DNA of 64,000 nucleotides from Patescibacteria group bacterium (GCA_041917855.1 JAYRWT010000044.1:21563-85562), one strand, 5' to 3'. Shown: positions 2,986 through 59,050, counted from the first letter of the stretch. The notes: a model not told the origin generated them from the sequence alone. Program-made: numbers and translations.

Positions 2986-3522
2986 ATGGAGCAAAAGAAA
3001 CCAAATACAACGGTAATCACGGTCGGTGTTCTAGCTCTCGTTCTAGCTATAGCCGGGGGAGTATCACTACTAAATAAGCAAGAGACTACCGAAACAGCAG
3101 ATGCTGAATCTAATGACGGATCCAGGCAAACGACTGCGAGTAGCTCTGCGCAAAGCACGCCAACGAGCAGTGCTACAACTACAGCGGCCAGTACCGCTCC
3201 TGCAACTGCCTCTACGGCTGCAAACACATATAAAAACGGTACGTACTCGGCCAGTGGTACCTACAGTACTCCCGGAGGGGCGGAAAGCATAAACGTAACC
3301 TTAACCATAAAAGATGGTGTAGTTACAGACTCTAGCGTTAGCCAGTCAACGACTAACCGTGAGAGTCAGGAATTCTTTAACTCTTTTGCAGCGAGCTACA
3401 AAGGCAAAGTTGTTGGGCAAAAGCTAGAGAGCCTAAGCCTGAGTCGTGTCTCTGGCTCCTCACTCACCCCAAGAGGATTCAACAGCGCCCTGGCAAGCAT
3501 TAAATCAAAAGCAAAGAGCTAG
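2986..3522 (+). CDS. Membrane-anchored extracytoplasmic FMN-binding (FMN_bind) domain protein with Ser/Thr-rich linker
   Basis: Start moved to ATG 2986, which has an AAGGA Shine-Dalgarno 7 nt upstream. N-in signal anchor (KK then hydrophobic stretch), S/T/A-rich linker, and a C-terminal YKNGTYSASGTY...INVTLTIKDGVVTD...RVSGSSLT segment resembling NqrC/RnfG-type FMN_bind domains with an SGAT-like flavinylation motif (SGSS). Confidence 0.6.
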   Translation: MEQKKPNTTVITVGVLALVLAIAGGVSLLNKQETTETADAESNDGSRQTTASSSAQSTPTSSATTTAASTAPATASTAANTYKNGTYSASGTYSTPGGAESINVTLTIKDGVVTDSSVSQSTTNRESQEFFNSFAASYKGKVVGQKLESLSLSRVSGSSLTPRGFNSALASIKSKAKS

Positions 3523-10495: not shown

Positions 10496-10996
10496 TTACA
10501 GAATATTCTTGATCAGTGCTGTTAGGCTTGGGTCACTCGAAGCGACAAAACTTGCCTCAAGCTTGCCATCGTCACCAACGCGAACCAAGGTGGTTTGTAC
10601 CTTTACGCCATAGGTTTTGCGCAGCGCTTGGTTAGAATCATAGTCAACTTTAATAATCGTTACACCCTGAGGAATTTTACCTGATCGAATACTCGCGTCG
10701 AGTGCGCGGCAGTCTGGACACCACGAGGCATGAAAGAAAAGAATCTTCTTGCCAGACGTTTTCTCAATAATGCCCGGCTCATAGGTAGTATAGGTTCCTG
10801 TGCTCGCAGTGTTGGCTTGCGCCGAAGCAGTGACACTAGCGACCGAAGCACTTGCTGTAGGAGTAGGAGTGCTCTCAGCTACTTGATTGCTATTCATAGT
10901 GCTCTGGCGCATATAGGCATATACGCCACCTGCAACAAGTACCAACGCACCAACCAGGATAAAAACCATCTGAGGAGTTTGGGATTTTTGCTTCAT
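10496..10996 (-). CDS. Membrane-anchored thioredoxin-like protein (TlpA/ResA type)
   Basis: Signal anchor, S/T-rich linker, WCPDC active-site motif. Confidence 0.8.
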   Translation of the reverse strand: MKQKSQTPQMVFILVGALVLVAGGVYAYMRQSTMNSNQVAESTPTPTASASVASVTASAQANTASTGTYTTYEPGIIEKTSGKKILFFHASWCPDCRALDASIRSGKIPQGVTIIKVDYDSNQALRKTYGVKVQTTLVRVGDDGKLEASFVASSDPSLTALIKNIL

Positions 10997-11059
10997 GGGG
11001 ATGTGTAATGGATTAGTCGGTACTTTTGTATGCGCCTACTATAGTTCATCAGATAGTCT

Positions 11060-12052
11060 GTGTACACTAAATCTATGATGCAGGTGACAAATAAAAACTT
11101 TTGGGATCCAAGTGGCATCGGTTTTAACGAGGCTGTTTGGGTAGAAGCTTATGCAGGCTTTGCGGAAACATACGCAAAATCAACAAATTTAATCCAGCTG
11201 CGCCGTAAGAGAAGAATCCTACTAACTATTGGTTGGGTGGGTATGATGGTTATGCCTGCGTTGGTTGGCTACGCCACGTATGCCCTAAAGCTATCACTAG
11301 ATGGTAATATTTTGTTTTTATTGTGTATTAGCTGGATGCCGTACTTGGCCATGTACGGTAATCTGAAAAAGATGCAGCACGATATCGCCAAGCTGCAAAT
11401 AGCAAAGGAAAAAGGATGGACCTACTGGCCAAGTGAAGACCGTGATCGCTATGGTCGATTATCTACCCTGTACCCTGCGGTATTTAATGTTGGCACTAGC
11501 TCCCAATACTTTTCAGATGAGTTTTGGGGAGAGCAGCCGGGGAAACATTTGACTACACCTTTTTGGGTTGCCGACTTTACCTACACCGTGGGTAGCGGTA
11601 AAAACGAAACAGTGATTCACGAAACTGCATTTGCGGTGCACTTAGCGCGTCCTGTGCAAACAGAATTAACAATCCTACCGGAAAACTTTGCTACGCGCGT
11701 GGCTAATGTTTTCACCCGTTCAGATATACAACTTGAATCTGCCGAGTTTAACCAAAAATTTCACCTAAGCTATGCGGCGGACAATGACGTACAAAAGAAA
11801 CAAAAAATATTTCAAGTTCTTAATCCGCCGGCGATGGCAACACTGTTAGATATTAACGATCACATTGGAAGGTTCAGGCTTACATTTAAGGATGATGTAA
11901 TTGCTGGCAGCTTCAGTAATCAAATTTTTAGACCAAAGTATTCAAACTTTTTTAAGAGCACGGCGGTTGACCCGCGTGACTTGCAAAACCTGAATGATTT
12001 TTTAACAAAGATCACCACGCTTGCTACTCAGCTCTCCTTTGATTTGGATTAA
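11060..12052 (+). CDS. Hypothetical membrane-associated protein
   Basis: 330 aa; internal hydrophobic helices (LLTIGWVGMMVMPALVGYATYAL, ILFLLCISWMPYLAMYG); no recognisable catalytic motifs. Confidence 0.4.
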   Translation: MYTKSMMQVTNKNFWDPSGIGFNEAVWVEAYAGFAETYAKSTNLIQLRRKRRILLTIGWVGMMVMPALVGYATYALKLSLDGNILFLLCISWMPYLAMYGNLKKMQHDIAKLQIAKEKGWTYWPSEDRDRYGRLSTLYPAVFNVGTSSQYFSDEFWGEQPGKHLTTPFWVADFTYTVGSGKNETVIHETAFAVHLARPVQTELTILPENFATRVANVFTRSDIQLESAEFNQKFHLSYAADNDVQKKQKIFQVLNPPAMATLLDINDHIGRFRLTFKDDVIAGSFSNQIFRPKYSNFFKSTAVDPRDLQNLNDFLTKITTLATQLSFDLD

Positions 12053-17968: not shown

Positions 17969-19381
17969 ATGGGCACACATAAGGTATCTCCTGTTCTTTG
18001 GATTGGTTTGATCGTAGTTTTGCTTGGTGGGGGTGTGGCGGTATATAGCCAGCGTAATACAAAAGAAGAGCAGGGCAAGAATCAAGCTGTTGATAAAAAA
18101 GAAGATCAGGGTAAAACTACAGGTGCGCTCACACCTGCAAAATCGAATGGGTACACAGGCTTAGCTGGTGACGTTATTAGCAGTAGCGCGTTCGAGTGTC
18201 AGCCGCGTAGCGAGCACGAGTGGTATCGTACCGATCGTACTTTTGCAGTAGATCCTAAGAATCCACAGGTGATGTACACCAGTGTGGAGTATAAGGGTGT
18301 GTACAAATCTGTCGATGGCGGTACAACCTGGAAGTCTGCCAGCAAGGGGATTCGCGCCTACAGTCGCCAGGATGACAAAACAAAGCCCTGCTATAGCGAG
18401 TATCCGGTGATCAAGATTAACCCCAAGGACAGCAATCACATCGTGATCGCTATCAGTAGTGGCGGCGGTGGCCATCTACACCCAACTAACATGAACCAGC
18501 AAGTGGGCGGTGTCTACCAGAGCTTTAACGCAGGTGAAAGTTGGGAACTGATGATTGATAACACCATGAACACCTATGTTACTGACGTGGTATTTGACGC
18601 CGATGGCGCGGTATACTACGGCACAGCTTCTAACCCAGGATCGTGGACCGAGGCTGACCAGAACCAGCTCTTCGTCAGCAAGGGGCTTATCTATAAAACC
18701 AGCGACAAGGGGAACACCTGGACTGAGCTGCCAACCGGCATTGGCAGCCGAACCTCGGCGACTAAGGTGTTCGTCAACCCGGCAAATACCCAGCAGATTA
18801 TGGCTCCGACCTACTCGGCAGTGCGACAATCGGCTGATGGCACGGGGACGGGTATCAGCACGGGTAAAGATACAAACGTAGCTCAGCTGGGAATTTTAAG
18901 CTCAAGTGATGCTGGTAAAACCTGGAAGCGCATTGCGCTGCCTGGAAACGTGCCGGTGCTGAGTGCCGCAGTTTCGTCAGCCAAGTTTGCTAACCAGATC
19001 TACATTAGTGCAACAACCGACGAGTCCTTTGTTACCTTTGACGCAGGCGCTACTTTTACCAAAACCAAGTACCTGAACACCGTCGCCTACGACCCATTCG
19101 ACGCGACTGGCAAGCACCTGCTAGCCTACAGTATGCAGTCCATGAACGGGCCAGGGCTAAATTTACACGAGAGCCTTGACGGTGGGCTTACCTGGAAAGC
19201 AAAAGGCTCGCTGCCACGCGAGATTACTGACCTGAACGATAAAAAGACCCGCGTCAGCAACCTATTCTGGCACCCAACCGACAAGAACACTATCTATATG
19301 AATGGTGCTTCCGGGTACCTATGGGTCAGTACCGACCTAGGTACAACCTGGAAGCGTCTACTTACCTATACTGACTTATAA
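17969..19381 (+). CDS. Secreted BNR/Asp-box repeat protein (sialidase-/Ycf48-like beta-propeller)
   Basis: Start moved to ATG 17969 (MGTHKVSPVLWIGLIVVLLGG signal anchor). Five or more SxDxGxTW Asp-box repeats (SVDGGTTW, SDKGNTW, SSDAGKTW, SLDGGLTW, STDLGTTW). Confidence 0.65.
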   Translation: MGTHKVSPVLWIGLIVVLLGGGVAVYSQRNTKEEQGKNQAVDKKEDQGKTTGALTPAKSNGYTGLAGDVISSSAFECQPRSEHEWYRTDRTFAVDPKNPQVMYTSVEYKGVYKSVDGGTTWKSASKGIRAYSRQDDKTKPCYSEYPVIKINPKDSNHIVIAISSGGGGHLHPTNMNQQVGGVYQSFNAGESWELMIDNTMNTYVTDVVFDADGAVYYGTASNPGSWTEADQNQLFVSKGLIYKTSDKGNTWTELPTGIGSRTSATKVFVNPANTQQIMAPTYSAVRQSADGTGTGISTGKDTNVAQLGILSSSDAGKTWKRIALPGNVPVLSAAVSSAKFANQIYISATTDESFVTFDAGATFTKTKYLNTVAYDPFDATGKHLLAYSMQSMNGPGLNLHESLDGGLTWKAKGSLPREITDLNDKKTRVSNLFWHPTDKNTIYMNGASGYLWVSTDLGTTWKRLLTYTDL

Positions 19382-20516: not shown

Positions 20517-20880
20517 CTTCAGTCTCGCTGTCCTGTAAGGACTTTGAAAACTGCTAGTGAATCCTGATTTACATGCTGGCGCGCTGTATCACTCCTACCT
20601 CATATGAGGGTGTGTGTTTTCTGATTCTCACTCGTTTTTTCAGTCCTTGCGGACACACAGACGATACCAAAAAGCTACTAGCTAGCCTAGTATCTGTATC
20701 CCCGTTGAGGGAGCCCGACGAGAGCAGGTAGTGGATAAAAGTTTTAATCCGTGGCTGCTGGCAGTCGATGTTATGGTAAAAACGTGGCCAAAGTTCGTTC
20801 TTACAAGGATTATCCTGAGTAGATTGATGTATATGTTGGCTCTAGATAATATAGAAGCATAGATAAAATAAACTATTCTT

Positions 20881-21273
20881 ATGGAAAACATGTCTATGAA
20901 TTGGCTTGCCATCTTTCTCGCGGCGCTATCTGCCTTTTTAGTCGGAGGTATTTGGTACTCCGCACTTTTTGCTAAAAGCTGGCAGCGTTTGGCGGGAGTA
21001 TCAGACGATCAGATGAAAACCGGTATGGCCAAAATATTTATTGGGTCATTTGTATTGTCGCTCATCATGTCGGTAAACCTAGGCTTTTTCATCGGAAAAG
21101 AAAGTGCCATTTTTGGACTAGGAGCAGGACTGGCCGTTGGGTTGGGGTGGGTAGCTACTTCGTTCGGTATGAACTACTTATTTGAACGTAAGCCAGTTGG
21201 ATTATTTCTTATAAATGCGGGATACAACATTGTCTCCTACGCGCTGATGGGATTTATTTTGGGTGCGTTTTAA
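20881..21273 (+). CDS. Small integral membrane protein (DUF1761-like)
   Basis: 130 aa, 4 TM helices; the N-terminal MNWLAIFLAALSAFLVGGIWYSALFAKSW resembles the DUF1761 family. Confidence 0.45.
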   Translation: MENMSMNWLAIFLAALSAFLVGGIWYSALFAKSWQRLAGVSDDQMKTGMAKIFIGSFVLSLIMSVNLGFFIGKESAIFGLGAGLAVGLGWVATSFGMNYLFERKPVGLFLINAGYNIVSYALMGFILGAF

Positions 21274-21580
21274 TTCAGGGGTTTGCTGCAGATTTATAGC
21301 GTTCTGCTCCTCGCAATCTAACAAGGTTAGGGAGCTTTTTGCTCGATCTGTGATAGTGCGGTATTGCTGACCAGTAGTTTCTGCCAGGGTGGCACAGTCT
21401 AAGTTCGATAGGTGCACGGCTTTTGACTGTGACGGTCTAATGTATGTTTGGTTATTTGGCACTTCTATGTATGCACATACCACATCGCAGGCATCACGGC
21501 TCAAAATTAAACCTTGCAAATAGCGCAAAGAAAAAAGCACAGCGACGATTGTCGCTGTGCCGAGAGGGTCGGTGACTGCG

Positions 21581-21754
21581 CTACGCTTCTCGAGGGATTC
21601 GCGTACTGCAGCCAGTTGACGTTCCTTCTGTGCCTGCCCGCTCTGCCATGATGGTATCCACCATCTTTGCCAGTTTCGGGTGGTTGGTCTTGATTGCTTC
21701 GGGAGTCATGCTACCGAGCAACTTTTCAACTTGCTTTCTTTTATTTTGCGCCAT
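21581..21754 (-). CDS. Small ORF (57 aa) overlapping the 3' end of the upstream gene; possibly the N-terminal fragment of a frameshifted gene
   Basis: ATG overlaps the C-terminal codons of the 567-aa gene; a GAGGAG Shine-Dalgarno lies 5 nt upstream. The reading continues in another frame as the 21202-21540 ORF (EKRSAVTDPLGT...). Confidence 0.25.
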   Translation of the reverse strand: MAQNKRKQVEKLLGSMTPEAIKTNHPKLAKMVDTIMAERAGTEGTSTGCSTRIPREA

Positions 21755-23444
21755 TGGATCTCCTCAAAACAGGATGCAGCATTGTTGGCTTCAGTGAGCC
21801 AAAATGCTTTCGGGCATTTTCCTGTGCGTTTCTGACTGATAGCAAGCTACTTGCATCAGGTGATTGAGTTATACCAGAATTACCAAGATCACACCAGAGT
21901 GCCTGGCTGGTGAACATGCACAGTAACTCGGGGGATAACCGAGCGCGAATAGCTGTAGTCGCCGCATGTGCAGCCGCCATTCCCAAGTATGCCATTGAAT
22001 CGGCACAAATCTCTAAACAGGCATGGCCAGGGCTATTCTGGTACTGAATCTCAGATACCTCATCAGCCACAAAACGCAACAGCCTTGTGAGATCGGTGCT
22101 TCGCTTCTTAGGGCTCCTAGCAAGCTGTTCAACAATCGAAGCGCCTAATGACGAATCGATCATGTAGCGTGAAAGGAAAAACTCGAGCTGCGAATCATCT
22201 TGGGCGACGCGGGTTGCTCTCTTGGCAATAGCCGCAAACAAGTTATCCTGATGAGTTGCTGATATCCCATGCGTCTCAGAAATATCCCACCGGCGCATCC
22301 TTCTGTGGAAGTTTCTCCTTACTCGATGGTAGAGTGCTTCCGATCCAAAAGATCTGGTGTCAGTCATAACCGGTACGCAGAGGCCTGGATGGCAGCTACG
22401 CACAGACTCCAGATTGTCAGTCATTGCGGTTAAGCAATGACCGCTATCGAGATATCGGGCAACTCCCTGAAATGGATCCAGGCATGCCCAAATATTGCGC
22501 TCTCGATCAAGCTCAACTAGCACGCAGTAGTGGAGCATGCGTTGGAATGTATCTTCCGCTAGTGCCTCACCCCACTTTGTGCGCATTCCATCAATTTCTT
22601 TTGTTGAAAAAATTGCTGAAAAATTACACATGTAGGTGTACATACTCTGACGGGCGCCTACCAAGATTGCTCGATCACATTCTTGTTCTCCGGCAACCAC
22701 CAACGCAAGGTGATGGCGAAAGCCAAGCTTGGCTAGTACCGCAAGGCAGATCACGGCAAATCCGAGGCAATTTGGCATTTGAAGTGCAGAAAACCGGTAG
22801 GGGTTAACACGATCAAATGAATCAGGCTTATGAATACTTTCAAAGCCATGTCTTCTGAGTTTTGTGTAGATGTCCCAGCATTCTTTAGGAACTCCTTGAA
22901 GGAATTTTTCATTCAGACACTCATACAATCCCTCTAACATCCCATACAGGTATGAGAACAAGTCTTCAGGGCTGAGGGCTTGTTGCGCGGCTGTGGGTAA
23001 AGAGGAGATACGCTGTCTTTGCTGATCCTTCTTAAGGGTTCTGACTGCAAGGTTGCTGATTGATAAGAGCGATCCCACCAAGCAGTTTCCTAAATGTCTG
23101 TAGCAAGTTACCAACGATGTGGTTTCGGAGTTGGATAATATCTGTGCTCCTGTGTAGGTTTGGTGAGTAATCTCACCACACAAGCGCCATAGTTCAACTG
23201 GTGATGGAAGAGGTTTGATGTGACGACGATTACCAGTGAGCAGTCCAAGTCGAACCGCTTCTCTGGTGAGAATGTGTGTAGGTTCTAGTGGTTGCATTGT
23301 TAAGTTCCGATGTGTCGGCACAATACCAGGTTTGTAACAATTTGTCACGTAAGGAGGGGGCGACTGTACGATTAACGTAATAGAGGTCTCGTATATCATT
23401 GACAAATTACTGCTGTATGGTACATTTGCGCCGTTCTTTAACAA
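21741..23444 (-). CDS. Transglutaminase-like superfamily cysteine protease domain protein (Cys-rich, no signal peptide)
   Basis: Cys/His/Asp triad context: NCLGFAVICLAVLAKLGF (catalytic Cys), LHYCVLVEL (His), IWACLDPFQG (Asp in a W..DP motif). Start uncertain (TTG 23444, ATG 23399 or ATG 23297). Confidence 0.55.
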   Translation of the reverse strand: MLKNGANVPYSSNLSMIYETSITLIVQSPPPYVTNCYKPGIVPTHRNLTMQPLEPTHILTREAVRLGLLTGNRRHIKPLPSPVELWRLCGEITHQTYTGAQILSNSETTSLVTCYRHLGNCLVGSLLSISNLAVRTLKKDQQRQRISSLPTAAQQALSPEDLFSYLYGMLEGLYECLNEKFLQGVPKECWDIYTKLRRHGFESIHKPDSFDRVNPYRFSALQMPNCLGFAVICLAVLAKLGFRHHLALVVAGEQECDRAILVGARQSMYTYMCNFSAIFSTKEIDGMRTKWGEALAEDTFQRMLHYCVLVELDRERNIWACLDPFQGVARYLDSGHCLTAMTDNLESVRSCHPGLCVPVMTDTRSFGSEALYHRVRRNFHRRMRRWDISETHGISATHQDNLFAAIAKRATRVAQDDSQLEFFLSRYMIDSSLGASIVEQLARSPKKRSTDLTRLLRFVADEVSEIQYQNSPGHACLEICADSMAYLGMAAAHAATTAIRARLSPELLCMFTSQALWCDLGNSGITQSPDASSLLSVRNAQENARKHFGSLKPTMLHPVLRRSNGAK

Positions 23445-23448
23445 GGAA

Positions 23449-23503
23449 GATTAAGAAGAGCTTCGGGGAAATATGACGTATTTCTCGGTAGTTCTTCTTA
23501 ATC
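23449..23503. promoter_or_regulatory. 55-bp imperfect palindrome (operator-like) in the divergent promoter region of the islet genes
   Basis: GATTAAGAAG ... CTTCTTAATC, perfect 10-bp outer arms, with inner aaata/tattt symmetry. Confidence 0.45.
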
Positions 23504-23555
23504 ATGAGAAGACCTGGATCCCGCGGAACACTACCGCAAGGAGAAGTGACCCACA

Positions 23556-24224
23556 ATGAGTGAAGTCACCCTCAATCCCGATCTTGCCAACTGCGCTGCT
23601 GACTACGCTCGCCGATGCGAAAGTATCGGAGGCGAACGTCATAAGATCATAGATCTTCAGCATGCGATGAGTCACCCCCAGTTCAAAGAACGGCATCACG
23701 CCTTGCTGAACGAACTGGCTAATGAATACCGCCAAAGGCTTCCGTTGCTCGAGCGGCCTGCTCGATTCACCCTGAAACTCGGCGTCTATGGCACCAAAGA
23801 GAACATGCTCAAGTCTGTCACAGACAAAGGCCACAAGTTCACATATTGCGCCACACGCGTGATTGCCAGCGACCGGTTTCTGATGTTGGATGCGCCCGGA
23901 GAATACGAATTCATCCAGACCACCGCCAAGGAAGTGAGTGGCAAGAACAGCCCGACCATCACAGAGCTACGCAAAGCCATGCATCGTCTTGGTTTCATTG
24001 ATGCTCCTCACGAATCGGCTCCAGCCATTCGTGAGATCTATAACGACCAGCCCATGGACGAATGGTGCGCTGTTCTCAGCAAGCCAATAGCGGACTCTAA
24101 TGGTGACGCGAACATTCTCAACGTGGCACGGCACTCTGGCGGTTCTTGTGTGGGCAGGTACTTTGCCCATCGTGGCCTTGATTGGGATGGTGATACTCTG
24201 CTTCTGGTCTGCCGCAAGCTTTAG
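23556..24224 (+). CDS. Hypothetical protein (222 aa)
   Basis: ORF with an AAGGAGAAG Shine-Dalgarno-like sequence upstream; no recognisable family. Confidence 0.5.
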   Translation: MSEVTLNPDLANCAADYARRCESIGGERHKIIDLQHAMSHPQFKERHHALLNELANEYRQRLPLLERPARFTLKLGVYGTKENMLKSVTDKGHKFTYCATRVIASDRFLMLDAPGEYEFIQTTAKEVSGKNSPTITELRKAMHRLGFIDAPHESAPAIREIYNDQPMDEWCAVLSKPIADSNGDANILNVARHSGGSCVGRYFAHRGLDWDGDTLLLVCRKL

Positions 24225-24263
24225 TGCTCGGCTTAGGCCCTTTGTCTTTTCGATTCCTTGTGC

Positions 24264-24293
24264 TTTTGCATGGGGCCGCTCCTTGAGCGGCTC
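24264..24293 (+). terminator. Rho-independent terminator
   Basis: GCCGCTC-ctt-GAGCGGC 7-bp stem followed by TCTATTTTTTT. Confidence 0.65.
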
Positions 24294-24387
24294 TATTTTT
24301 TTCTCAAAAATCAGGTAACACGGTCTGGGTGGAGCCTCCCTATACAAAAGAAATACCGCCAGACCTTGCGGCCTGACGGCATTTCTT

Positions 24388-24461
24388 TGGCAGGGGCACT
24401 AGGAATCGAACCTAGAACAAGGGTTTTGGAGACCCGTGTGATACCACTTCACCATACCCCT
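24388..24461 (-). tRNA. tRNA-Trp (anticodon CCA), 3' CCA encoded
   Basis: Manual cloverleaf: acceptor AGGGGTA/TGCCCCT, anticodon loop CTCCAAA, T-arm CTAGG-TTCGATT-CCTAG. Confidence 0.8.
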
Positions 24462-24587
24462 ACAACGTTCGAAGTATACCAAATCATTTCCACTCTTTCC
24501 AGGTCTGTCGCGCTAAAACAAATCTACCACTAGATAAGAAATCAGGGCCAATCCTGAATAGAAAAGGCCCTGTGCTGACGAGTGTTG

Positions 24588-24914
24588 CTAAACCTCAGCT
24601 GGCTGGGGCTCGGCTTTGAGTAGTGTTCTGATTTGTTGCAAGACCACTGGGTAATTTCTCCCTGTGATTGTGTGCGTTGAGCCGTCTGACTCTAGAACCA
24701 CCTTTGCCTCAATTGATCGAACATACTGGCTGTCGGCAAGTCCGTCGCACCAGAAGCGGTTTTGCCCATCCTCTTGCAAGAAAACTCCCTGGTTTTTGTA
24801 GTGCGCGACCCCTGCTGGGGTGAGTTGGCTACGATAGTCCACATGCTGGACTCCCTGTATCTTTTCCATAGCAGAAAATTTATACCAGATTTCTACAACT
24901 AAGCCAAGCAACAT
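24588..24914 (-). CDS. Hypothetical protein (108 aa)
   Basis: ORF between tRNA-Trp and rpmG; no motifs recognised. Confidence 0.3.
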   Translation of the reverse strand: MLLGLVVEIWYKFSAMEKIQGVQHVDYRSQLTPAGVAHYKNQGVFLQEDGQNRFWCDGLADSQYVRSIEAKVVLESDGSTHTITGRNYPVVLQQIRTLLKAEPQPAEV

Positions 24915-25273: not shown

Positions 25274-25348
25274 TGGAGCCCCTTCAGAGAATCGAACTCT
25301 GCTCTATAGTTTACAAAACTACCGCTCTAACCACTGAGCTAAAGGGGC
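25274..25348 (-). tRNA. tRNA-Thr (anticodon TGT), CCA encoded
   Basis: Acceptor GCCCCTT/AAGGGGC, D-arm GCTC-AGTGGTTA-GAGC, anticodon loop TTTGTAA, T-arm CAGAG-TTCGATT-CTCTG. Confidence 0.85.
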
Positions 25349-25746
25349 AACGATCTGCGTTGCTGTCTGCCTCGACCCCTATTAAGATTCCGAAATGTGG
25401 GGGTTAATGAGTGACAGTTCGGACAAACAAGCCGTAGGTTCTCTGGTCTACTGTTCTGGTGATCACCATTGATGTGGTCGACCTCCAGTGGGACTTTGCC
25501 TGTGATAGGATTACGTTCCTGCCAATTGCAGAGTGAACAGCGCTCACCATGCTGTTCTAGAAGATAGCGCTTAATAGAGTATGAAACTCCACTCGCTGCT
25601 GTACCTTCTAACTTCCCACAAAGCCAGTCAGAAATCCTATTGGCATACTGAAATGCTTGCTGGCAACTCAAGCTGCAGTATACTGCGGGGGTTCGTTTAA
25701 CGGGCTTGCCACAGTTTTTACACAAATTTCGTACTTTTCTAGGCAT
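25339..25746 (-). CDS. HNH endonuclease
   Basis: VDHINGDHQNSRPENLRLVCPNCH is a classic HNH motif; N-terminal CxxC zinc ribbon. The 3' end overlaps the 5' end of tRNA-Thr(TGT) by about 10 nt. Confidence 0.75.
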   Translation of the reverse strand: MPRKVRNLCKNCGKPVKRTPAVYCSLSCQQAFQYANRISDWLCGKLEGTAASGVSYSIKRYLLEQHGERCSLCNWQERNPITGKVPLEVDHINGDHQNSRPENLRLVCPNCHSLTPTFRNLNRGRGRQQRRSLPL

Positions 25747-56349: not shown

Positions 56350-56802
56350 TTCTATAGTCCTTTCGAATTGATCTTTCCCACATTCAGAACCGTCGAATAA
56401 GTAACAGGCAGCGCTTTTGCATAGTGATCTGGCTGAGAAGTGTGTACCGCAAGGTACGTGGATGACTGGTTCACAGCACTCAACCAGAAGGTTACCTTAG
56501 GCTTCAAGCCATACAACCATCTGTCTCTGTGACCACGCCCGCTTCTTGGCTGGATCACTGGGCACAAGCGTTTTTTATTTCAGAGGGGCAACCCGACGGA
56601 ACTGAACCGATCTGCTCCCAGTCTACTGAAACTTTCCTTGCAGGATTGGTGAAGTAGATCGGTGCGCTCAGTAAGCATCGGAATTTGAAAATGAGGTAGT
56701 ATGATCCGCCCGGACGTACATCTCTACATATATAGATTTTTACCAAGCACCAGGTGGGTGTCGCAAGCATGCGTTATATGCACGATTAGGAGCAAAAAAG
56801 AC

Positions 56803-57921
56803 ATGAAGAAGATCATTCCTCTCGTCGCCCTGGCGCTCGCTCTTGCGGTCGCGCCCATGACCTCTTTCGCCCAAACAACGGGTGGGGGAACCGGTAACGG
56901 CACAGCGACCACCGTGAATAATGGTGGGGCGTCTCGTGCGACCAGTGTTGGGCTCAGCCTCTGGACAGAAGTTCAGAAGTTTAGCCAGGCCGGCCTGGAG
57001 TTGAGCATTAACCTGCGCAACAATCGGTCGGGTCAGCTGGTGACCGGAATCAAGGGCAAGACCCTTGAAATGATTCCTTTTTGGGGAGTCGCTGGCATCG
57101 ATTACACGATCGAGATCGAGATCTTGCCGCAGGCGGCAGGTCTCCGATTCGATCGTAATGGTCGGCCTCTCATGAAAGTGAGGGCTACCGGCGATGACTC
57201 AACTGATCAGCGAATCACGCTGAGCAAGCCTGATGAGAAGGGAAGAGTTGTTGTAAAGATCAACCTGGCTAAGTTCACCGGCGCCGAAATGATCAATTTC
57301 GGGTGCAGGGTGGACATGGCTACAGGAAGAGACTACAGCAAGACTCTCTGTATCACATGGTCAGCTCGCGACCACTACGAAGGGGCGATGGCCCGGATCA
57401 CCATTCCCGTAAAGGGCGTGTGGCCCAAGGACATCCCCCTTAATGACGACAGCGTCGCAGACTACCAAGTCCTCGCCGCGGCCGAGACCGTGACGAATGT
57501 CCCCCAGAACATTGGTGGGATCATTCGTTACGCCAACTCACAAGCCCTGACGGATGCTCTGCGCAGGCTGCACAACCCGCAGCCTGTACAGCAGGATCCG
57601 CCAGTCGTCACGACCCAAACCGTTACTGTCACAGTCGACCAGAAGGGTCGAATTGTTGAGAGTGATTCGGCAAAGTGTCCCTTTGTCGTCTCCACGAAGG
57701 ACGGAGATCTCATCATCAAGGCGTTTAACCCGAGTGAGGTTACAGTCTACTGGAAGCTCCAAGACGGATATAACGTCAACGGAGCTAAGGCAGGCAAAAA
57801 CCTTATCGGTGCCGACCCGCTCGTGATGATGAAAGAGGCCTTGGCCTCCGTAGACATCGAGTGGAAAGACCTGGACGGCAAGGTTCACGTGTACATCGTG
57901 AACCTGGCCTCCGCCAACTGA
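56803..57921 (+). CDS. Hypothetical secreted protein, in a high-GC cassette
   Basis: Start moved to ATG 56803, which has an AGGAGC Shine-Dalgarno; signal peptide MKKIIPLVALALALAVAPMTSFA. Coding GC by eye near 60%, against about 48-50% in the flanks. Confidence 0.55.
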   Translation: MKKIIPLVALALALAVAPMTSFAQTTGGGTGNGTATTVNNGGASRATSVGLSLWTEVQKFSQAGLELSINLRNNRSGQLVTGIKGKTLEMIPFWGVAGIDYTIEIEILPQAAGLRFDRNGRPLMKVRATGDDSTDQRITLSKPDEKGRVVVKINLAKFTGAEMINFGCRVDMATGRDYSKTLCITWSARDHYEGAMARITIPVKGVWPKDIPLNDDSVADYQVLAAAETVTNVPQNIGGIIRYANSQALTDALRRLHNPQPVQQDPPVVTTQTVTVTVDQKGRIVESDSAKCPFVVSTKDGDLIIKAFNPSEVTVYWKLQDGYNVNGAKAGKNLIGADPLVMMKEALASVDIEWKDLDGKVHVYIVNLASAN

Positions 57922-57931
57922 GAGAAAAAGA

Positions 57932-59050
57932 ATGAAGTTTATCGCTTTAATCATCAGTCTGGTCTTGGCCGCTTGCGGCTTTGGTCAGACCCTCGACATC
58001 AAGCCAACGAACTCCGGTTCGGTGGCTACAACCAAGGACACGGTGACCATCTACCGTATGGAAAGAAAGGACGGAGTCGTCCAACAGACCATCAAAGTGA
58101 TGCCCGCCAGCACACCAGAAGAGCGTGCAGCGGTGGTAGCCCAGCGAGGCTTCCGTACAATCAACCTTGCGAAGGTGTCTGCCGAGAAAAAGGCGGCACT
58201 TGCAAGGGCTGAGCTGTCGGAGGCTCAGTTGAATGCTCGGCAGGGGATTGCGGCGGAGTTTCCGCCCGGGGCCTTCTACCAAGCGGACTACAGCGACGTG
58301 GCAATGTTCACCTCACACACTGAGCGGATTACCCAAGGTCACTACGACCCTGATCCTATGGTGTGGAAAGGTGTAGAACGTGTTCGGCTTCCTCACGAGG
58401 CCCAACCGCTGCTCGGGTGGATGGTCTTCAAGAAGCGGTCAGGAATCAAGTACTACCGGTTTGGTTACGTTGACGAAAATGAAGACGTAGTTGGCCTGAG
58501 TACTCCTGATCCGGCGACCGGAAAGTCGAAACCATTGTTCTACACTGAGGTTTGGAGCCACCCCCAAGCGGGAGGAAAAACCACCGAGGCGTACCTGAAC
58601 TTTGGTTTCGCCACCAATGCCACACGCTGCAAAAACCACTTCCCAACAGTCACGCTCAGCAGCTCCGCCTTCATGGTGGAGCGACCGACCTTGACCAAGC
58701 AAGTGGATCGCTACCGAGAGGTGGTGCGCACACTTACTACTACGGTCACCACCACAGTGGAGAAGACCGTCAGGGTGAACGTGCCGCAGGTGCCTAACAT
58801 GGGTGGAGGGATATTCATCGCCTTCAACGGCTATAGCCAGGTCAATGACAGTCAGCAGATCCGGACGGAGATGATCACTATGGATCTCTTCTTCTTTAGC
58901 GCAGGCTGCCGTCGTCTGCCCAAAACTGTCTGTGATGACGGTTGGGCCATTGACTGGGACAACCTTCCAGGCAGCTTTGGCGATACTGGTCCCAACCCGT
59001 GGTTGGGCGGGGACACCGAATGGGGTCCACCACCTCCTCGGGGAGGCTAG
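57932..59050 (+). CDS. Hypothetical lipoprotein, in the same high-GC cassette
   Basis: Lipobox LVLAAC|G after the MKFIALIISLV signal; Gly/Pro/Trp-rich C-terminus. Confidence 0.55.
   Translation: MKFIALIISLVLAACGFGQTLDIKPTNSGSVATTKDTVTIYRMERKDGVVQQTIKVMPASTPEERAAVVAQRGFRTINLAKVSAEKKAALARAELSEAQLNARQGIAAEFPPGAFYQADYSDVAMFTSHTERITQGHYDPDPMVWKGVERVRLPHEAQPLLGWMVFKKRSGIKYYRFGYVDENEDVVGLSTPDPATGKSKPLFYTEVWSHPQAGGKTTEAYLNFGFATNATRCKNHFPTVTLSSSAFMVERPTLTKQVDRYREVVRTLTTTVTTTVEKTVRVNVPQVPNMGGGIFIAFNGYSQVNDSQQIRTEMITMDLFFFSAGCRRLPKTVCDDGWAIDWDNLPGSFGDTGPNPWLGGDTEWGPPPPRGG

What the first reader, a model, noticed from the sequence alone, without database searches (positions are those of the whole stretch)
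21581..24293. tRNA-proximal accessory islet: transglutaminase-like cysteine protease, divergent unknown gene and shared palindromic control region
Immediately downstream of tRNA-Trp lie two divergently transcribed genes of unknown function. The larger (about 530-567 aa, no signal peptide, many Cys) contains an ordered Cys-His-Asp transglutaminase-core signature (NCLGFA ... LHYCVLVEL ... WACLDPF). Cytoplasmic transglutaminase-like proteases occur in effector, toxin and defence contexts. The 222-aa partner has no recognisable family and ends in a clean terminator. Codon usage looks somewhat more C-ending than the flanks. Upstream lies about 1.2 kb of low-coding DNA (20517-20880, 21274-21740) including a probable frameshifted small gene (21202-21754). 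Together this looks like a decayed integration hotspot carrying a two-gene cargo.
Basis: partly seen in the sequence, partly recalled or inferred. Interest (0 to 1): 0.6.

Follow-up and report, generated by a model that had tools for sequence, protein, structure and literature searches.

The report
Two unrelated accessory modules near tRNA-Trp
Beside a tRNA-Trp gene sit two unrelated accessory units: a stranded hypervariable-protein gene that has lost its mutagenic retroelement, and a very rare, uncharacterised enzyme with a transglutaminase-like active-site signature that is always paired with a tiny partner protein.

Summary
The genes, the Cys-His-Asp motif, the terminator and the palindrome are all real, but the "two-gene cargo with a shared control region" reading does not hold.

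1. The 222-aa gene belongs to a family of diversity-generating retroelement (DGR) target proteins.
- In five homologous genes, the last ~126 bp is repeated downstream, with mismatches almost only at template adenines.
- Reverse transcriptase and Avd genes lie alongside where the contig reaches far enough.
- The predicted fold is C-type lectin.
- The window copy has no template repeat, RT or Avd within 64 kb, and is base-identical in six other assemblies. It is best read as an orphan, static target.

2. The palindrome is a hairpin with covariation in the conserved 5' leader of this gene family. It is not a shared operator.

- A homologue follows every member of this very rare family.
- It carries an invariant Gly-Cys core in a [ST][GS]GC motif.
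- It is fused to the enzyme in one homologue.

4. The transglutaminase-like triad is conserved and aligns in register with human TG2. Pfam and fold searches do not confirm it.

5. The tRNA-Trp flank is strain-variable. Sister strains carry a 4.8-kb SMODS island there.

The parts
21536..21561 (-). Intrinsic terminator that closes the large-gene/57-aa operon
   Evidence: 11-bp stem with 7 GC pairs, followed by TTTTT. Also reported as inverted repeat I5.
21581..21754 (-). 57-aa partner protein gene. The N-terminal part is helical and variable. The C-terminal tail TEGTSTGCSTRIPREA is conserved and carries the family motif [ST][GS]GC[SR], with an invariant Gly-Cys.
   Evidence: Homologous small ORFs lie immediately downstream of every family member (L010, L011, L013, L014) and the ORF is fused in frame in P0019. 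An HMM of the six small proteins hits only these positions among 4513 ORFs. It has a GGAGGA Shine-Dalgarno sequence and overlaps the upstream stop by 14 nt.
21741..23399 (-). Large protein (552 aa as called; probable true start is the ATG at 23297, giving 518 aa). It has a transglutaminase/papain-like Cys211-His290-Asp308 core (codons 22767-22769, 22530-22532, 22476-22478) and an uncharacterised C-terminal domain.
   Evidence: An exhaustive phmmer search found only 8 clusters in 1.84 billion representatives. Conserved motifs are PNCLG.A, H, W..lDP, LPGL.VP, GHP..E.yAD and SSQLIW.E. The TG2 triad aligns in register by hhalign. Codon positions were checked. Homologue N-termini align near residue 31-35.
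23320..23348 (-). Promoter-like site upstream of the ATG at 23297 (GTGACA-17-TG-TATTGT)
   Evidence: Consensus scan, 9 of 12 matches. This is a consensus match only, not shown to function.
23399..23426 (+). Promoter of the 222-aa gene (TTGACA-16-TG-TACATT)
   Evidence: 10 of 12 matches. Equivalent TTGAC.. / TATAAT-like boxes sit at the same distance upstream in L004, L006, L007, L023 and L024.
23433..23513 (+). Conserved structured 5' leader of the DGR-target gene family: a GTTCTTTAACAA box plus a 22-bp hairpin (23449-23503).
   Evidence: In 7 loci, 14 of 22 pairs show compensatory changes. 93.5% of cells are paired, against 81.4 +/- 1.7 in shuffles (0 of 500) and 49% or less when the partner is slid. 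One pair is an invariant G-U. The covariance model scores 75.8 bits on + and 27 bits on -. There is no convincing Rfam match (three hits overlap the leader at E 0.69-0.98, far below gathering score). RNA folding gives -29.1 kcal/mol.
23556..24224 (+). 222-aa orphan DGR variable protein: an N-terminal helical domain plus a C-type-lectin-fold domain.
24090..24215 (+). Variable-repeat-equivalent segment (aa 179-220) of the 222-aa gene
   Evidence: Collinear with the 126-nt VR/TR of L004. No matching TR anywhere in the window or in L001. There are 0 mismatches in six other assemblies.
24270..24296 (+). Terminator hairpin of the 222-aa cassette. Homology to DGR-bearing loci ends just after it.
   Evidence: 12-bp stem followed by TTTTTTT. 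An equivalent GC-rich hairpin follows the gene in L004, L006, L007, L023, L024 and L015. In those loci the DGR RNA/TR region follows; here it does not.
24351..24381 (.). Strain-variable junction. These 31 bp are replaced by a 4795-bp island in sister strains.
   Evidence: blastn breakpoints: L001 1-4254 matches window 28635-24382, and L001 9050-21659 matches window 24350-11744. Junction sequences were read.
24388..24461 (-). tRNA-Trp (CCA)
   Evidence: ARAGORN. Rfam tRNA model, 61.6 bits.

Best explanation
The interval holds two independent accessory units that happen to be neighbours beside a strain-variable tRNA-Trp flank.

(A) The 222-aa cassette, 23399-24306(+). It comprises its own promoter, a conserved hairpin-containing leader, the ORF and a terminator. 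It encodes a C-type-lectin-fold variable protein of the Patescibacteria-type DGR family. The part of the retroelement that normally follows (DGR RNA with template repeat, Avd, reverse transcriptase) is absent, so the gene is an orphan target that is no longer being diversified. Its function is inferred to be ligand binding with a frozen specificity.

(B) The large-gene/57-aa operon, 21581-23399(-). It is a self-contained two-gene module from a very rare, uncharacterised family. The large cytoplasmic protein carries a transglutaminase/papain-like Cys-His-Asp centre. The translationally coupled small protein presents a conserved [ST][GS]GC tail. I infer that the tail is the enzyme's substrate or pseudo-substrate, that is, cleavage or transacylation at or next to the Gly-Cys. 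What is shown is the conserved pairing, the motif conservation and one natural fusion. The chemistry and the biological role are inferred.

The two units are not functionally linked, and the palindrome belongs to unit A.
For: Unit A:
- TR-to-VR mismatches fall only at TR adenines in L015 (13/13), L004 (19/19 and 17/17), L007 (24/24) and L006 (20/21). L024 also has a TR.
- RT homologues are present in L015 and L006, and Avd homologues in L015, L004 and L006. Neither is found in the window or L001-3.
- No TR-like repeat of 24000-24260 occurs in the 64-kb window.
- Homology to DGR loci stops just after the terminator.
- The gene and its leader show 0 mismatches in six assemblies, while the neighbouring large gene differs at 26 of 1659 nt.
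- GC3 and C3 are atypical for the window.
- The literature reports that CPR DGR targets lack recognisable domains, and that non-adjacent targets exist (PMC8144416, PMC5758913).

Unit B:
- The family has 8 clusters in 1.84 billion representatives.
- Cys, His and Asp are conserved.
- The TG2 triad aligns in register, score 32.8 against 13.4 +/- 2.3 for shuffles.
- The AF2 topology places Cys at a helix N-terminus, followed by a strand, then the His strand and the Asp strand.
- A small ORF lies downstream in every locus that reaches that far, and P0019 is a fusion.
- The operon has a Shine-Dalgarno sequence, an overlapping stop/start and its own terminator.

Independence of the two units:
- The families co-occur only in this lineage.
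- The hairpin covaries and travels with the 222-aa family.
Against: Unit A:
- A template repeat and RT could lie elsewhere in the genome, beyond the 64-kb window. The gene would then be a remote target.
- Zero divergence is also seen in the neighbouring DUF1761 and L33 genes. It may therefore reflect recent recombination rather than loss of activity.

Unit B:
- Pfam Transglut_core and its relatives give no hit even at E = 10.
- The PNGase core, another superfamily member, does not align.
- No experiment or docking links the small protein's tail to the active site.
- The distant paralogue's partner in L011 has GSGP rather than GSGC, and the small-protein HMM does not detect it.
Confidence: 0.6

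Rival explanations
1. First reader's model. The large transglutaminase-like protein is an effector or toxin. The divergent 222-aa protein is its immunity or antitoxin partner. Both are co-regulated through a shared palindromic operator and were carried in as a two-gene cargo.
For: The genes are adjacent and divergent, with a palindrome between them. Both lack known families. Both lie next to a variable tRNA flank.
Against: The two families co-occur only in this lineage; 6 other 222-family loci and 9 other loci carrying the large-protein family have one without the other. The 222-aa family is a DGR target family. The hairpin, with the promoter and leader box, accompanies the 222-aa family in 7 loci and carries G-U pairs that indicate a plus-strand RNA. 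The conserved partner of the large protein is the 57-aa ORF. The two genes differ in composition.
Confidence: 0.05
2. The large-gene/57-aa operon is a protease-inhibitor or toxin-antitoxin pair. The small protein's tail occupies the active site as a pseudo-substrate and keeps a potentially harmful cytoplasmic cysteine peptidase silent. This would be analogous to staphopain/staphostatin or to toxin-first type II modules.
For: The small gene is co-transcribed immediately downstream. The module is rare, patchy and found in islands or mobile elements: L011 lies among type I R-M, relaxase, T4CP and DUF3768 genes. The N-terminal part of the small protein diverges very fast between strains, with 12 of 57 aa changed against 13 of 552 in the enzyme, as is common in conflict systems.
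Against: There is no homology to any known antitoxin, inhibitor or PADLOC family. No DNA-binding domain is recognisable. The natural in-frame fusion in P0019 would be odd for a labile antitoxin. Toxicity has not been tested.
Confidence: 0.22
3. The large-gene/57-aa operon is a peptide- or protein-maturation system. One form is RiPP-like release of a short Cys-initiated peptide. The other is ubiquitin-like exposure of a C-terminal Gly, with transfer by transglutaminase-type transacylation.
For: The Gly-Cys junction is invariant and is followed by a short basic tail of 8-13 residues. Papain/transglutaminase-fold enzymes do serve as leader peptidases; lasso B2 proteins are one example (bioRxiv 10.1101/2022.04.06.487251, PMC10885120). 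The enzyme has a second conserved C-terminal domain of unknown function that could supply further chemistry.
Against: There is no cyclase, RRE, transporter or E1/E2-like gene nearby in any locus. No NCBIfam or Pfam precursor family matches. The tail has no conserved acidic residue at lasso ring positions.
Confidence: 0.18
4. The 222-aa gene is still an active DGR target, served in trans by a template repeat and reverse transcriptase elsewhere in the genome.
For: Non-adjacent and remote DGR targets are documented (PMC5758913). The ORF, promoter, leader and terminator are all intact.
Against: No TR, RT or Avd lies within 64 kb. The VR is base-identical in six other assemblies from six runs spanning two haplotypes. 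[quoted passage not shown]
Confidence: 0.12
5. The Cys-His-Asp pattern is a coincidental motif, and the large protein is not a transglutaminase/papain-fold enzyme.
For: No Pfam, NCBIfam or PDB sequence hit was found. Fold searches were not significant. The PNGase core does not align.
Against: The three residues and their local motifs are the most conserved features across homologues at 19-33% identity. They also recur in a still more distant paralogue. The TG2 alignment is in register and lies about 8 sd above shuffles. The predicted secondary-structure order matches the core.
Confidence: 0.15

Closest known systems
DGR variable (target) proteins with a C-type-lectin fold, for example Treponema TvpA, Bordetella phage Mtd, and the domain-poor targets of Patescibacteria DGR clade 2
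   Same: The window protein is homologous (48-67% identity) to proteins with demonstrable VR/TR pairs showing adenine-specific mismatches. The variable segment is C-terminal. The predicted fold is C-type lectin or FGE-like. There is no signal peptide or other recognisable domain, as reported for CPR targets.
   Different: The window copy has no TR, Avd or RT within 64 kb and shows no variation between strains. The family also carries a conserved hairpin-containing 5' leader. It matched no Rfam family convincingly; I did not search the literature for it.
Transglutaminase-like cysteine peptidase superfamily (animal transglutaminases, lasso-peptide B/B2 leader peptidases, bacterial BTLCP/LapG-type proteases)
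   Same: The Cys, His and Asp occur in order, with Cys at a helix N-terminus in a C..[FA]A.....L..LG context, His in an H-aromatic-x-V-E-like strand, and Asp in W..[LI]DP. The triad aligns in register with TG2 C277/H335/D358.
   Different: The protein is not recognised by any Pfam or NCBIfam model. A helical insertion of about 50 residues lies between the Cys and His elements. There is an extra conserved C-terminal domain (GHP..E.yAD, SSQLIW.E, LHPLV.RRRR). It is obligatorily paired with a small [ST][GS]GC protein. No lasso cyclase, RRE or periplasmic signal is present.
Staphopain/staphostatin-type operons (cysteine protease followed by a small cytoplasmic inhibitor gene). This comparison rests on my own knowledge, not on a tool result.
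   Same: A papain-clan enzyme gene is immediately followed by a co-transcribed small protein gene. The small protein has a Gly-containing loop that could sit in the active site.
   Different: There is no sequence or predicted structural similarity. Staphostatins are beta-barrels of about 105 aa, whereas this partner is a 57-75-aa helical protein with a disordered tail. The enzyme here is not secreted.
CBASS-like SMODS/AGS-C islands at tRNA flanks (present in sister strains only)
   Same: They occupy the same chromosomal site, just 3' of tRNA-Trp, which shows the site is a gain/loss hotspot.
   Different: The island is absent from the window and is not part of either module described here.

Membership tests
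DGR variable (target) protein | Sequence homology to proteins that are demonstrable DGR targets | tested here: met
   48-61% identity over 97% or more of the length to P0005, P0007, P0009, P0010 and P0011. The genes for these carry VR/TR pairs.
DGR variable (target) protein | Cognate template repeat whose differences from the VR fall at TR adenines | tested here: not met
   Met in homologues: 13/13, 19/19, 17/17, 20/21 and 24/24 mismatches fall at TR adenines. For the window gene, no TR-like repeat of 24000-24260 exists in the 64-kb window or the L001 flanks. The rest of the genome was not available.
DGR variable (target) protein | DGR reverse transcriptase and Avd accessory gene nearby | tested here: not met
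   tblastn with the L015 and L006 RT and the L015 and L004 Avd finds nothing in the window or L001-3 at E <= 0.01. RT hits were found in L015 and L006, and Avd hits in L015, L004 and L006.
DGR variable (target) protein | C-type-lectin-fold domain carrying the variable residues at the C-terminus | tested here: met
DGR variable (target) protein | Ongoing hypervariation of the VR within or between populations | tested here: not met
   0 mismatches in 669 nt (VR included) across six assemblies from six runs, while the neighbouring large gene differs at 26 of 1659 nt. Read-level data were not available.
Transglutaminase-like / papain-clan cysteine peptidase | Ordered catalytic Cys, His and Asp conserved across the family | tested here: met
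   Cys211, His290 and Asp308 are conserved in all sequences that cover those columns. They also appear in a distant paralogue, hhalign E 2.3e-5.
Transglutaminase-like / papain-clan cysteine peptidase | Recognition by curated family models (Pfam Transglut_core and relatives; NCBIfam) | tested here: not met
   No such hit for the window protein at E <= 1. None for any of the 8 family members at E <= 10.
Transglutaminase-like / papain-clan cysteine peptidase | Profile alignment to a bona fide member with the triad in register | tested here: inconclusive
   Human TG2 core (sequence verified against PDB): hhalign score 32.8, P 5e-4, C/H/D in register, against shuffles of 13.4 +/- 2.3 with a maximum of 21.3. 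The PNGase core (verified) gives no alignment, score 14.4.
Transglutaminase-like / papain-clan cysteine peptidase | Three-dimensional superposition of the triad on the papain/transglutaminase core | tested here: inconclusive
Lasso-peptide (RiPP) B-protein system | Neighbouring Asn-synthetase-like lasso cyclase, a PqqD-like RRE, and a precursor with Thr at -2 and Asp/Glu at ring position 7-9 | tested here: not met
   No such genes occur in any of the loci. The small proteins match no precursor family. Their tails have no consistently placed acidic residue.
Known anti-phage defence or toxin-antitoxin families | Match to PADLOC, Pfam or NCBIfam models of defence or TA components | tested here: not met
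   No PADLOC hit for the large, 222-aa or 57-aa proteins or for their homologues. No Pfam or NCBIfam hit.

The most novel reading that the evidence does not exclude
The large protein and its 57-aa partner are the founding example of a previously undescribed two-component system. In it, a transglutaminase-fold enzyme acts on the invariant Gly-Cys junction of a dedicated, ribosomally made small protein. One possibility is that it releases a short Cys-initiated peptide. Another is that it forms an acyl-enzyme on the exposed Gly and transfers the helical N-terminal part onto another molecule, as a minimalist tagging or signalling system. The rapidly diverging N-terminal part of the partner would set specificity. 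Separately, the covarying hairpin leader upstream of Patescibacteria DGR target genes would be a new cis-regulatory RNA class.
Probability: 0.25. Interest if true: 0.8.

Novelty: new variant of a known kind. Interest (0 to 1): 0.5.

Why it matters
**The enzyme and its partner.** The large protein belongs to one of the rarest families one can still call conserved: 8 clusters among 1.84 billion representative proteins. It nevertheless has a clear catalytic signature and an obligate small partner with an invariant Gly-Cys site. That gives a concrete, cheap experiment: co-express the two, measure the partner's mass, and test a C211A mutant. The result could reveal new cysteine-peptidase or transacylase chemistry, or a new kind of conflict module in ultrasmall bacteria.

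**The orphan DGR target.** It shows how DGR cassettes decay and leave behind frozen C-type-lectin binders. It also exposes a conserved structured leader that may regulate variable-protein expression in Patescibacteria-type DGRs.

**For annotation.** Proximity and a palindrome were not evidence of a functional pair. The 'frameshifted' small ORF turned out to be the informative gene.

Tried and rejected
**Searches that found nothing**
- Pfam, NCBIfam, PADLOC and PHROG scans of the large, 222-aa and 57-aa proteins and their homologues gave no meaningful hits.
- PDB sequence searches with both family profiles found nothing relevant.
- The word-indexed homologue search for the large protein returned only a 98% identical copy. 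Repeating it with the family alignment did no better.
- The search for related loci with the large-protein family failed in genome contigs because no block was conserved enough. It found nothing in viral contigs. In metagenome contigs it found only a duplicate of P0014.
- Rfam gave no convincing match for the leader hairpin: three hits overlap it at E 0.69-0.98, far below their gathering scores.
- The covariance model of the leader found no extra copies in the window or the loci.

**Fold searches with the low-confidence large-protein model**
- All Foldseek PDB hits had E > 0.9.
- The afdb50 library was unavailable.

**Ideas considered and dropped**
- The PNGase core gave no hhalign match to the family.
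- I looked for long direct repeats or att-like duplications of the tRNA 3' end flanking the 4.8-kb island in L001. No exact repeat of 10 bp or more was found; by eye only a short CTTTTGT recurs at both junctions.
- The 98-aa ORF next to the L011 paralogue resembles the small partner by eye but is not detected by the small-protein HMM. I do not count it.
- I considered lipobox, CAAX and N-myristoylation readings of the GC motif. Motif position and context do not fit.
- The 112-aa ORF at 21202-21540(-) was rejected as a gene. It overlaps the DUF1761 3' end, lies beyond the operon terminator, and is not called in any assembly.


Full report
**What is at the coordinates.** tRNA-Trp(CCA) lies at 24388-24461 on the minus strand. 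Below it are three genes:
- a 222-aa ORF at 23556-24224(+);
- a large ORF at 21741-23399(-). It is 552 aa as called in public assemblies, 567 aa from an upstream TTG, and 518 aa from the ATG at 23297;
- a 57-aa ORF at 21581-21754(-), which overlaps the large ORF's stop by 14 nt.

Intrinsic terminators follow the 222-aa gene (24270-24296) and the 57-aa ORF (21561-21536). A 25-nt-arm palindrome sits at 23449-23503. None of the three proteins matches Pfam, NCBIfam, PADLOC or PHROGs. The surrounding window is ordinary chromosome, with IleRS, Mfd, type IV pilus genes, a P-type ATPase and heliorhodopsin.

**The tRNA flank is variable, but not in the way proposed.**
- Three metagenome contigs that are 97.4-98.7% identical to the window carry 4795 bp in place of window 24351-24381, a few bases after the tRNA.
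- The insert encodes a LexA/S24-like protein, a CTD6-like protein, a SMODS+AGS-C nucleotidyltransferase, NUDIX, GNAT and a MazG-like protein.
- Of six contigs carrying the identical 222-aa protein, five have the insert. One (L021) has the window's arrangement.
- The hotspot idea is therefore right. However, the 222-aa, large and 57-aa genes lie outside the indel and are present in both haplotypes.

**The 222-aa gene is a DGR target.** The family is small, with 11 clusters.
- In L015 (a Patescibacteria MAG), L004 (two tandem genes), L006, L007 and L024, the last ~116-134 bp of the gene is repeated 340-410 bp downstream at 79-90% identity.
- The mismatches fall at adenines of the downstream copy in 13/13, 19/19, 17/17, 20/21 and 24/24 cases. 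This is the signature of a template repeat and variable repeat.
- RT genes accompany them in L015 and L006, and Avd-like four-helix genes in L015, L004 and L006.
- This agrees with published descriptions of Patescibacteria DGR targets as domain-poor C-type-lectin proteins (PMC8144416).

**The window copy is an orphan.**
- There is no repeat of its 3' end in the 64-kb window or in the sister contigs. There is no RT or Avd either.
- Similarity to DGR-bearing loci ends just after the terminator. In those loci a conserved non-coding stretch and then the TR follow.
- The TR would fall about 340 bp past the stop, which is where tRNA-Trp now lies.
- The gene and its leader are base-identical in six other assemblies. 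The adjacent large gene differs at 26 of 1659 positions, and the tRNA-Trp/108-aa segment at 35 of 533.
- The gene is compositionally atypical, with GC3 0.59 and C3 0.37 against window means of 0.475 and 0.25. The large gene is typical.
- A remote TR elsewhere in the genome cannot be excluded. Non-adjacent targets are known (PMC5758913).

**The palindrome belongs to the 222-aa family.**
- Upstream of seven family genes the same layout recurs: TTGAC.../TATAAT-like boxes, a GTTCATTAACAA box, a long hairpin, and an AAGGAGAAGTAACCC ribosome-binding region.
- The hairpin has 22 pairs, and 14 of them show compensatory double changes. 93.5% of cells pair, against 81.4 +/- 1.7 in shuffles (0 of 500) and 49% or less when the partner is slid.
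- One pair is G-U in all seven sequences, and several others are G-U in some. This favours an RNA on the plus strand, in the 5' leader, over a DNA operator.
- There is no convincing Rfam match; three hits overlap the leader at E 0.69-0.98, far below gathering score.
- The two families co-occur only in this lineage. The 'shared control region' reading is therefore rejected.

**The large protein and its real partner.**
- An exhaustive HMMER search of 1.84 billion representatives found only 8 clusters at E <= 1e-3, most of them 538-578 aa.
- Despite 19-33% identity, they share PNCLG.A (Cys211), an invariant His290, W..lDP (Asp308) and LPGL.VP. They also share a conserved C-terminal region: GHP..E.yAD..hALG, SSQLIW.E and LHPLV.RRRR.
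- A still more distant paralogue, with the same motifs, sits convergently next to the family member in L011 (hhalign E 2.3e-5).
- Every locus that extends past the large gene has a 57-75-aa ORF immediately downstream. Each has a Shine-Dalgarno sequence or overlaps the upstream stop. In P0019 the small ORF is fused in frame.
- The small proteins share a helical N-terminal part (K..V..LL.G.s.eqI...hP.L..av) and a [ST][GS]GC[SR] motif with an invariant Gly-Cys, followed by a short basic tail.
- Between the two strain haplotypes, the small gene differs at 22 of 174 nt, giving 12 amino-acid changes. All are N-terminal to ERAGTEG; one more falls inside the tail (S46P), and the final TGCSTRIPREA is invariant. 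The enzyme has 13 changes in 552 aa.
- The ORF dismissed as a frameshifted remnant is therefore a bona fide, conserved and fast-evolving partner.

**Is the large protein transglutaminase-like?**

In favour:
- The triad is conserved.
- The AF2 secondary-structure order places Cys at the N-terminus of helix 211-225, then a strand, a helical insert, the His strand and the Asp strand.
- A family profile aligns with the human TG2 core (sequence verified against PDB) with C277/H335/D358 in register. The score is 32.8 against 13.4 +/- 2.3 (maximum 21.3) for 100 shuffles.

Against, or inconclusive:
- No Pfam hit at E <= 10 for any member.
- The AF2 model is poor, with pLDDT 52.
- The PNGase core does not align.

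I rate a transglutaminase/papain-like catalytic core at about 0.75.

**Mechanism.**
- Shown: the conserved two-gene operon, translational coupling, the invariant Gly-Cys site, one natural fusion, and catalytic-type motifs.
- Inferred: the small protein's tail is the enzyme's substrate or pseudo-substrate.
- I cannot separate three variants: a processing or tagging system, a protease-inhibitor or toxin-antitoxin pair, and a RiPP-like maturation system.
- Contexts point to an accessory, mobile character. L011 lies among type I R-M, relaxase, coupling-protein and DUF3768 genes. L008-L010 sit in a chromosomal metal-resistance neighbourhood. The window copy is beside a hotspot.

**Verdict.** The region contains an orphan DGR target, which is a new member of a known kind, and a very rare transglutaminase-like enzyme with a small-protein partner, which is a new variant of a known kind and possibly a new system. 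They are juxtaposed by chance next to a strain-variable tRNA-Trp flank.

Noticed in passing
window 24351-24381; L001 4255-9049: Sister strains carry a 4.8-kb island exactly here. It encodes a LexA/S24-like protein, a CTD6-like (ABC-3C-type) protein, a SMODS+AGS-C nucleotidyltransferase, NUDIX, GNAT and a MazG-like protein. It looks like a CBASS-like defence island and has no integrase. No exact repeat of 10 bp or more flanks it; by eye only a short CTTTTGT recurs at both junctions.
   Followed up: partly
window 21581-21754 compared with L001 11646-11819: The 57-aa gene is a local divergence hotspot: 22 of 174 nt and 12 of 57 aa differ between haplotypes. Almost all the changes (11 of 12) lie N-terminal to ERAGTEG. 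The flanking large gene differs by 1.6% and DUF1761 by 0%.
   Followed up: partly
window 24382-24914: The tRNA-Trp to 108-aa-gene segment is 6.6% divergent from the island-bearing haplotype, whereas the adjacent L33 gene is identical. This suggests the island arrived with a flank by recombination from a more distant relative.
   Followed up: no
L004 about 11700-11960, L006 about 1700-1930, L007 about 3060-3350, L024 about 1640-1860, L015 about 10830-11030: A conserved non-coding stretch (TAGGTGAATAC...GGTTACGG...CCGCTACCGAA.CCAGGAACTCG...CGCGAGA...AAAACA.AGATACTTGGTG) lies between the target-gene terminator and the template repeat in Patescibacteria-type DGRs. It is probably the 5' part of the DGR RNA.
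   Followed up: no
L015 11207-11701(-), L004 12135-12497(-): In these DGRs the Avd-like gene is encoded on the strand opposite to the target gene, TR and RT.
   Followed up: no
L011 8037-10038(-): A second, distant paralogue of the large protein (567 aa, with the same PNC.G / H / DPF / LPG..VP motifs) has its own downstream 98-aa ORF. It lies convergent to the family pair on a putative conjugative element. The 98-aa ORF has GSGP rather than GSGC, and the small-protein HMM does not detect it.
   Followed up: partly
window 56701-59050: Two adjacent ORFs (406 and 372 aa) have the highest GC3 in the window (0.66-0.67 against a mean of 0.475) and no Pfam match. They may be foreign DNA. They are followed by two DUF11-repeat surface-type proteins.
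   Followed up: partly
window 18727-18821: ARAGORN calls a 95-nt tRNA-Asn(att) inside the BNR/sortilin-like gene. Rfam does not support it, so it is probably a false positive.
   Followed up: partly
window 25339-25746: An HNH endonuclease ORF (135 aa) is wedged between the two tRNA-Thr genes of the tRNA cluster.
   Followed up: no
L004 1-9600; L007 1-1581: Members of the 222-aa DGR-target family sit on mobile elements. One is next to T4SS genes (VirB4/TraC-like, TrbC pilin, a coupling protein) and DUF3768. Another is next to a large serine recombinase.
   Followed up: partly
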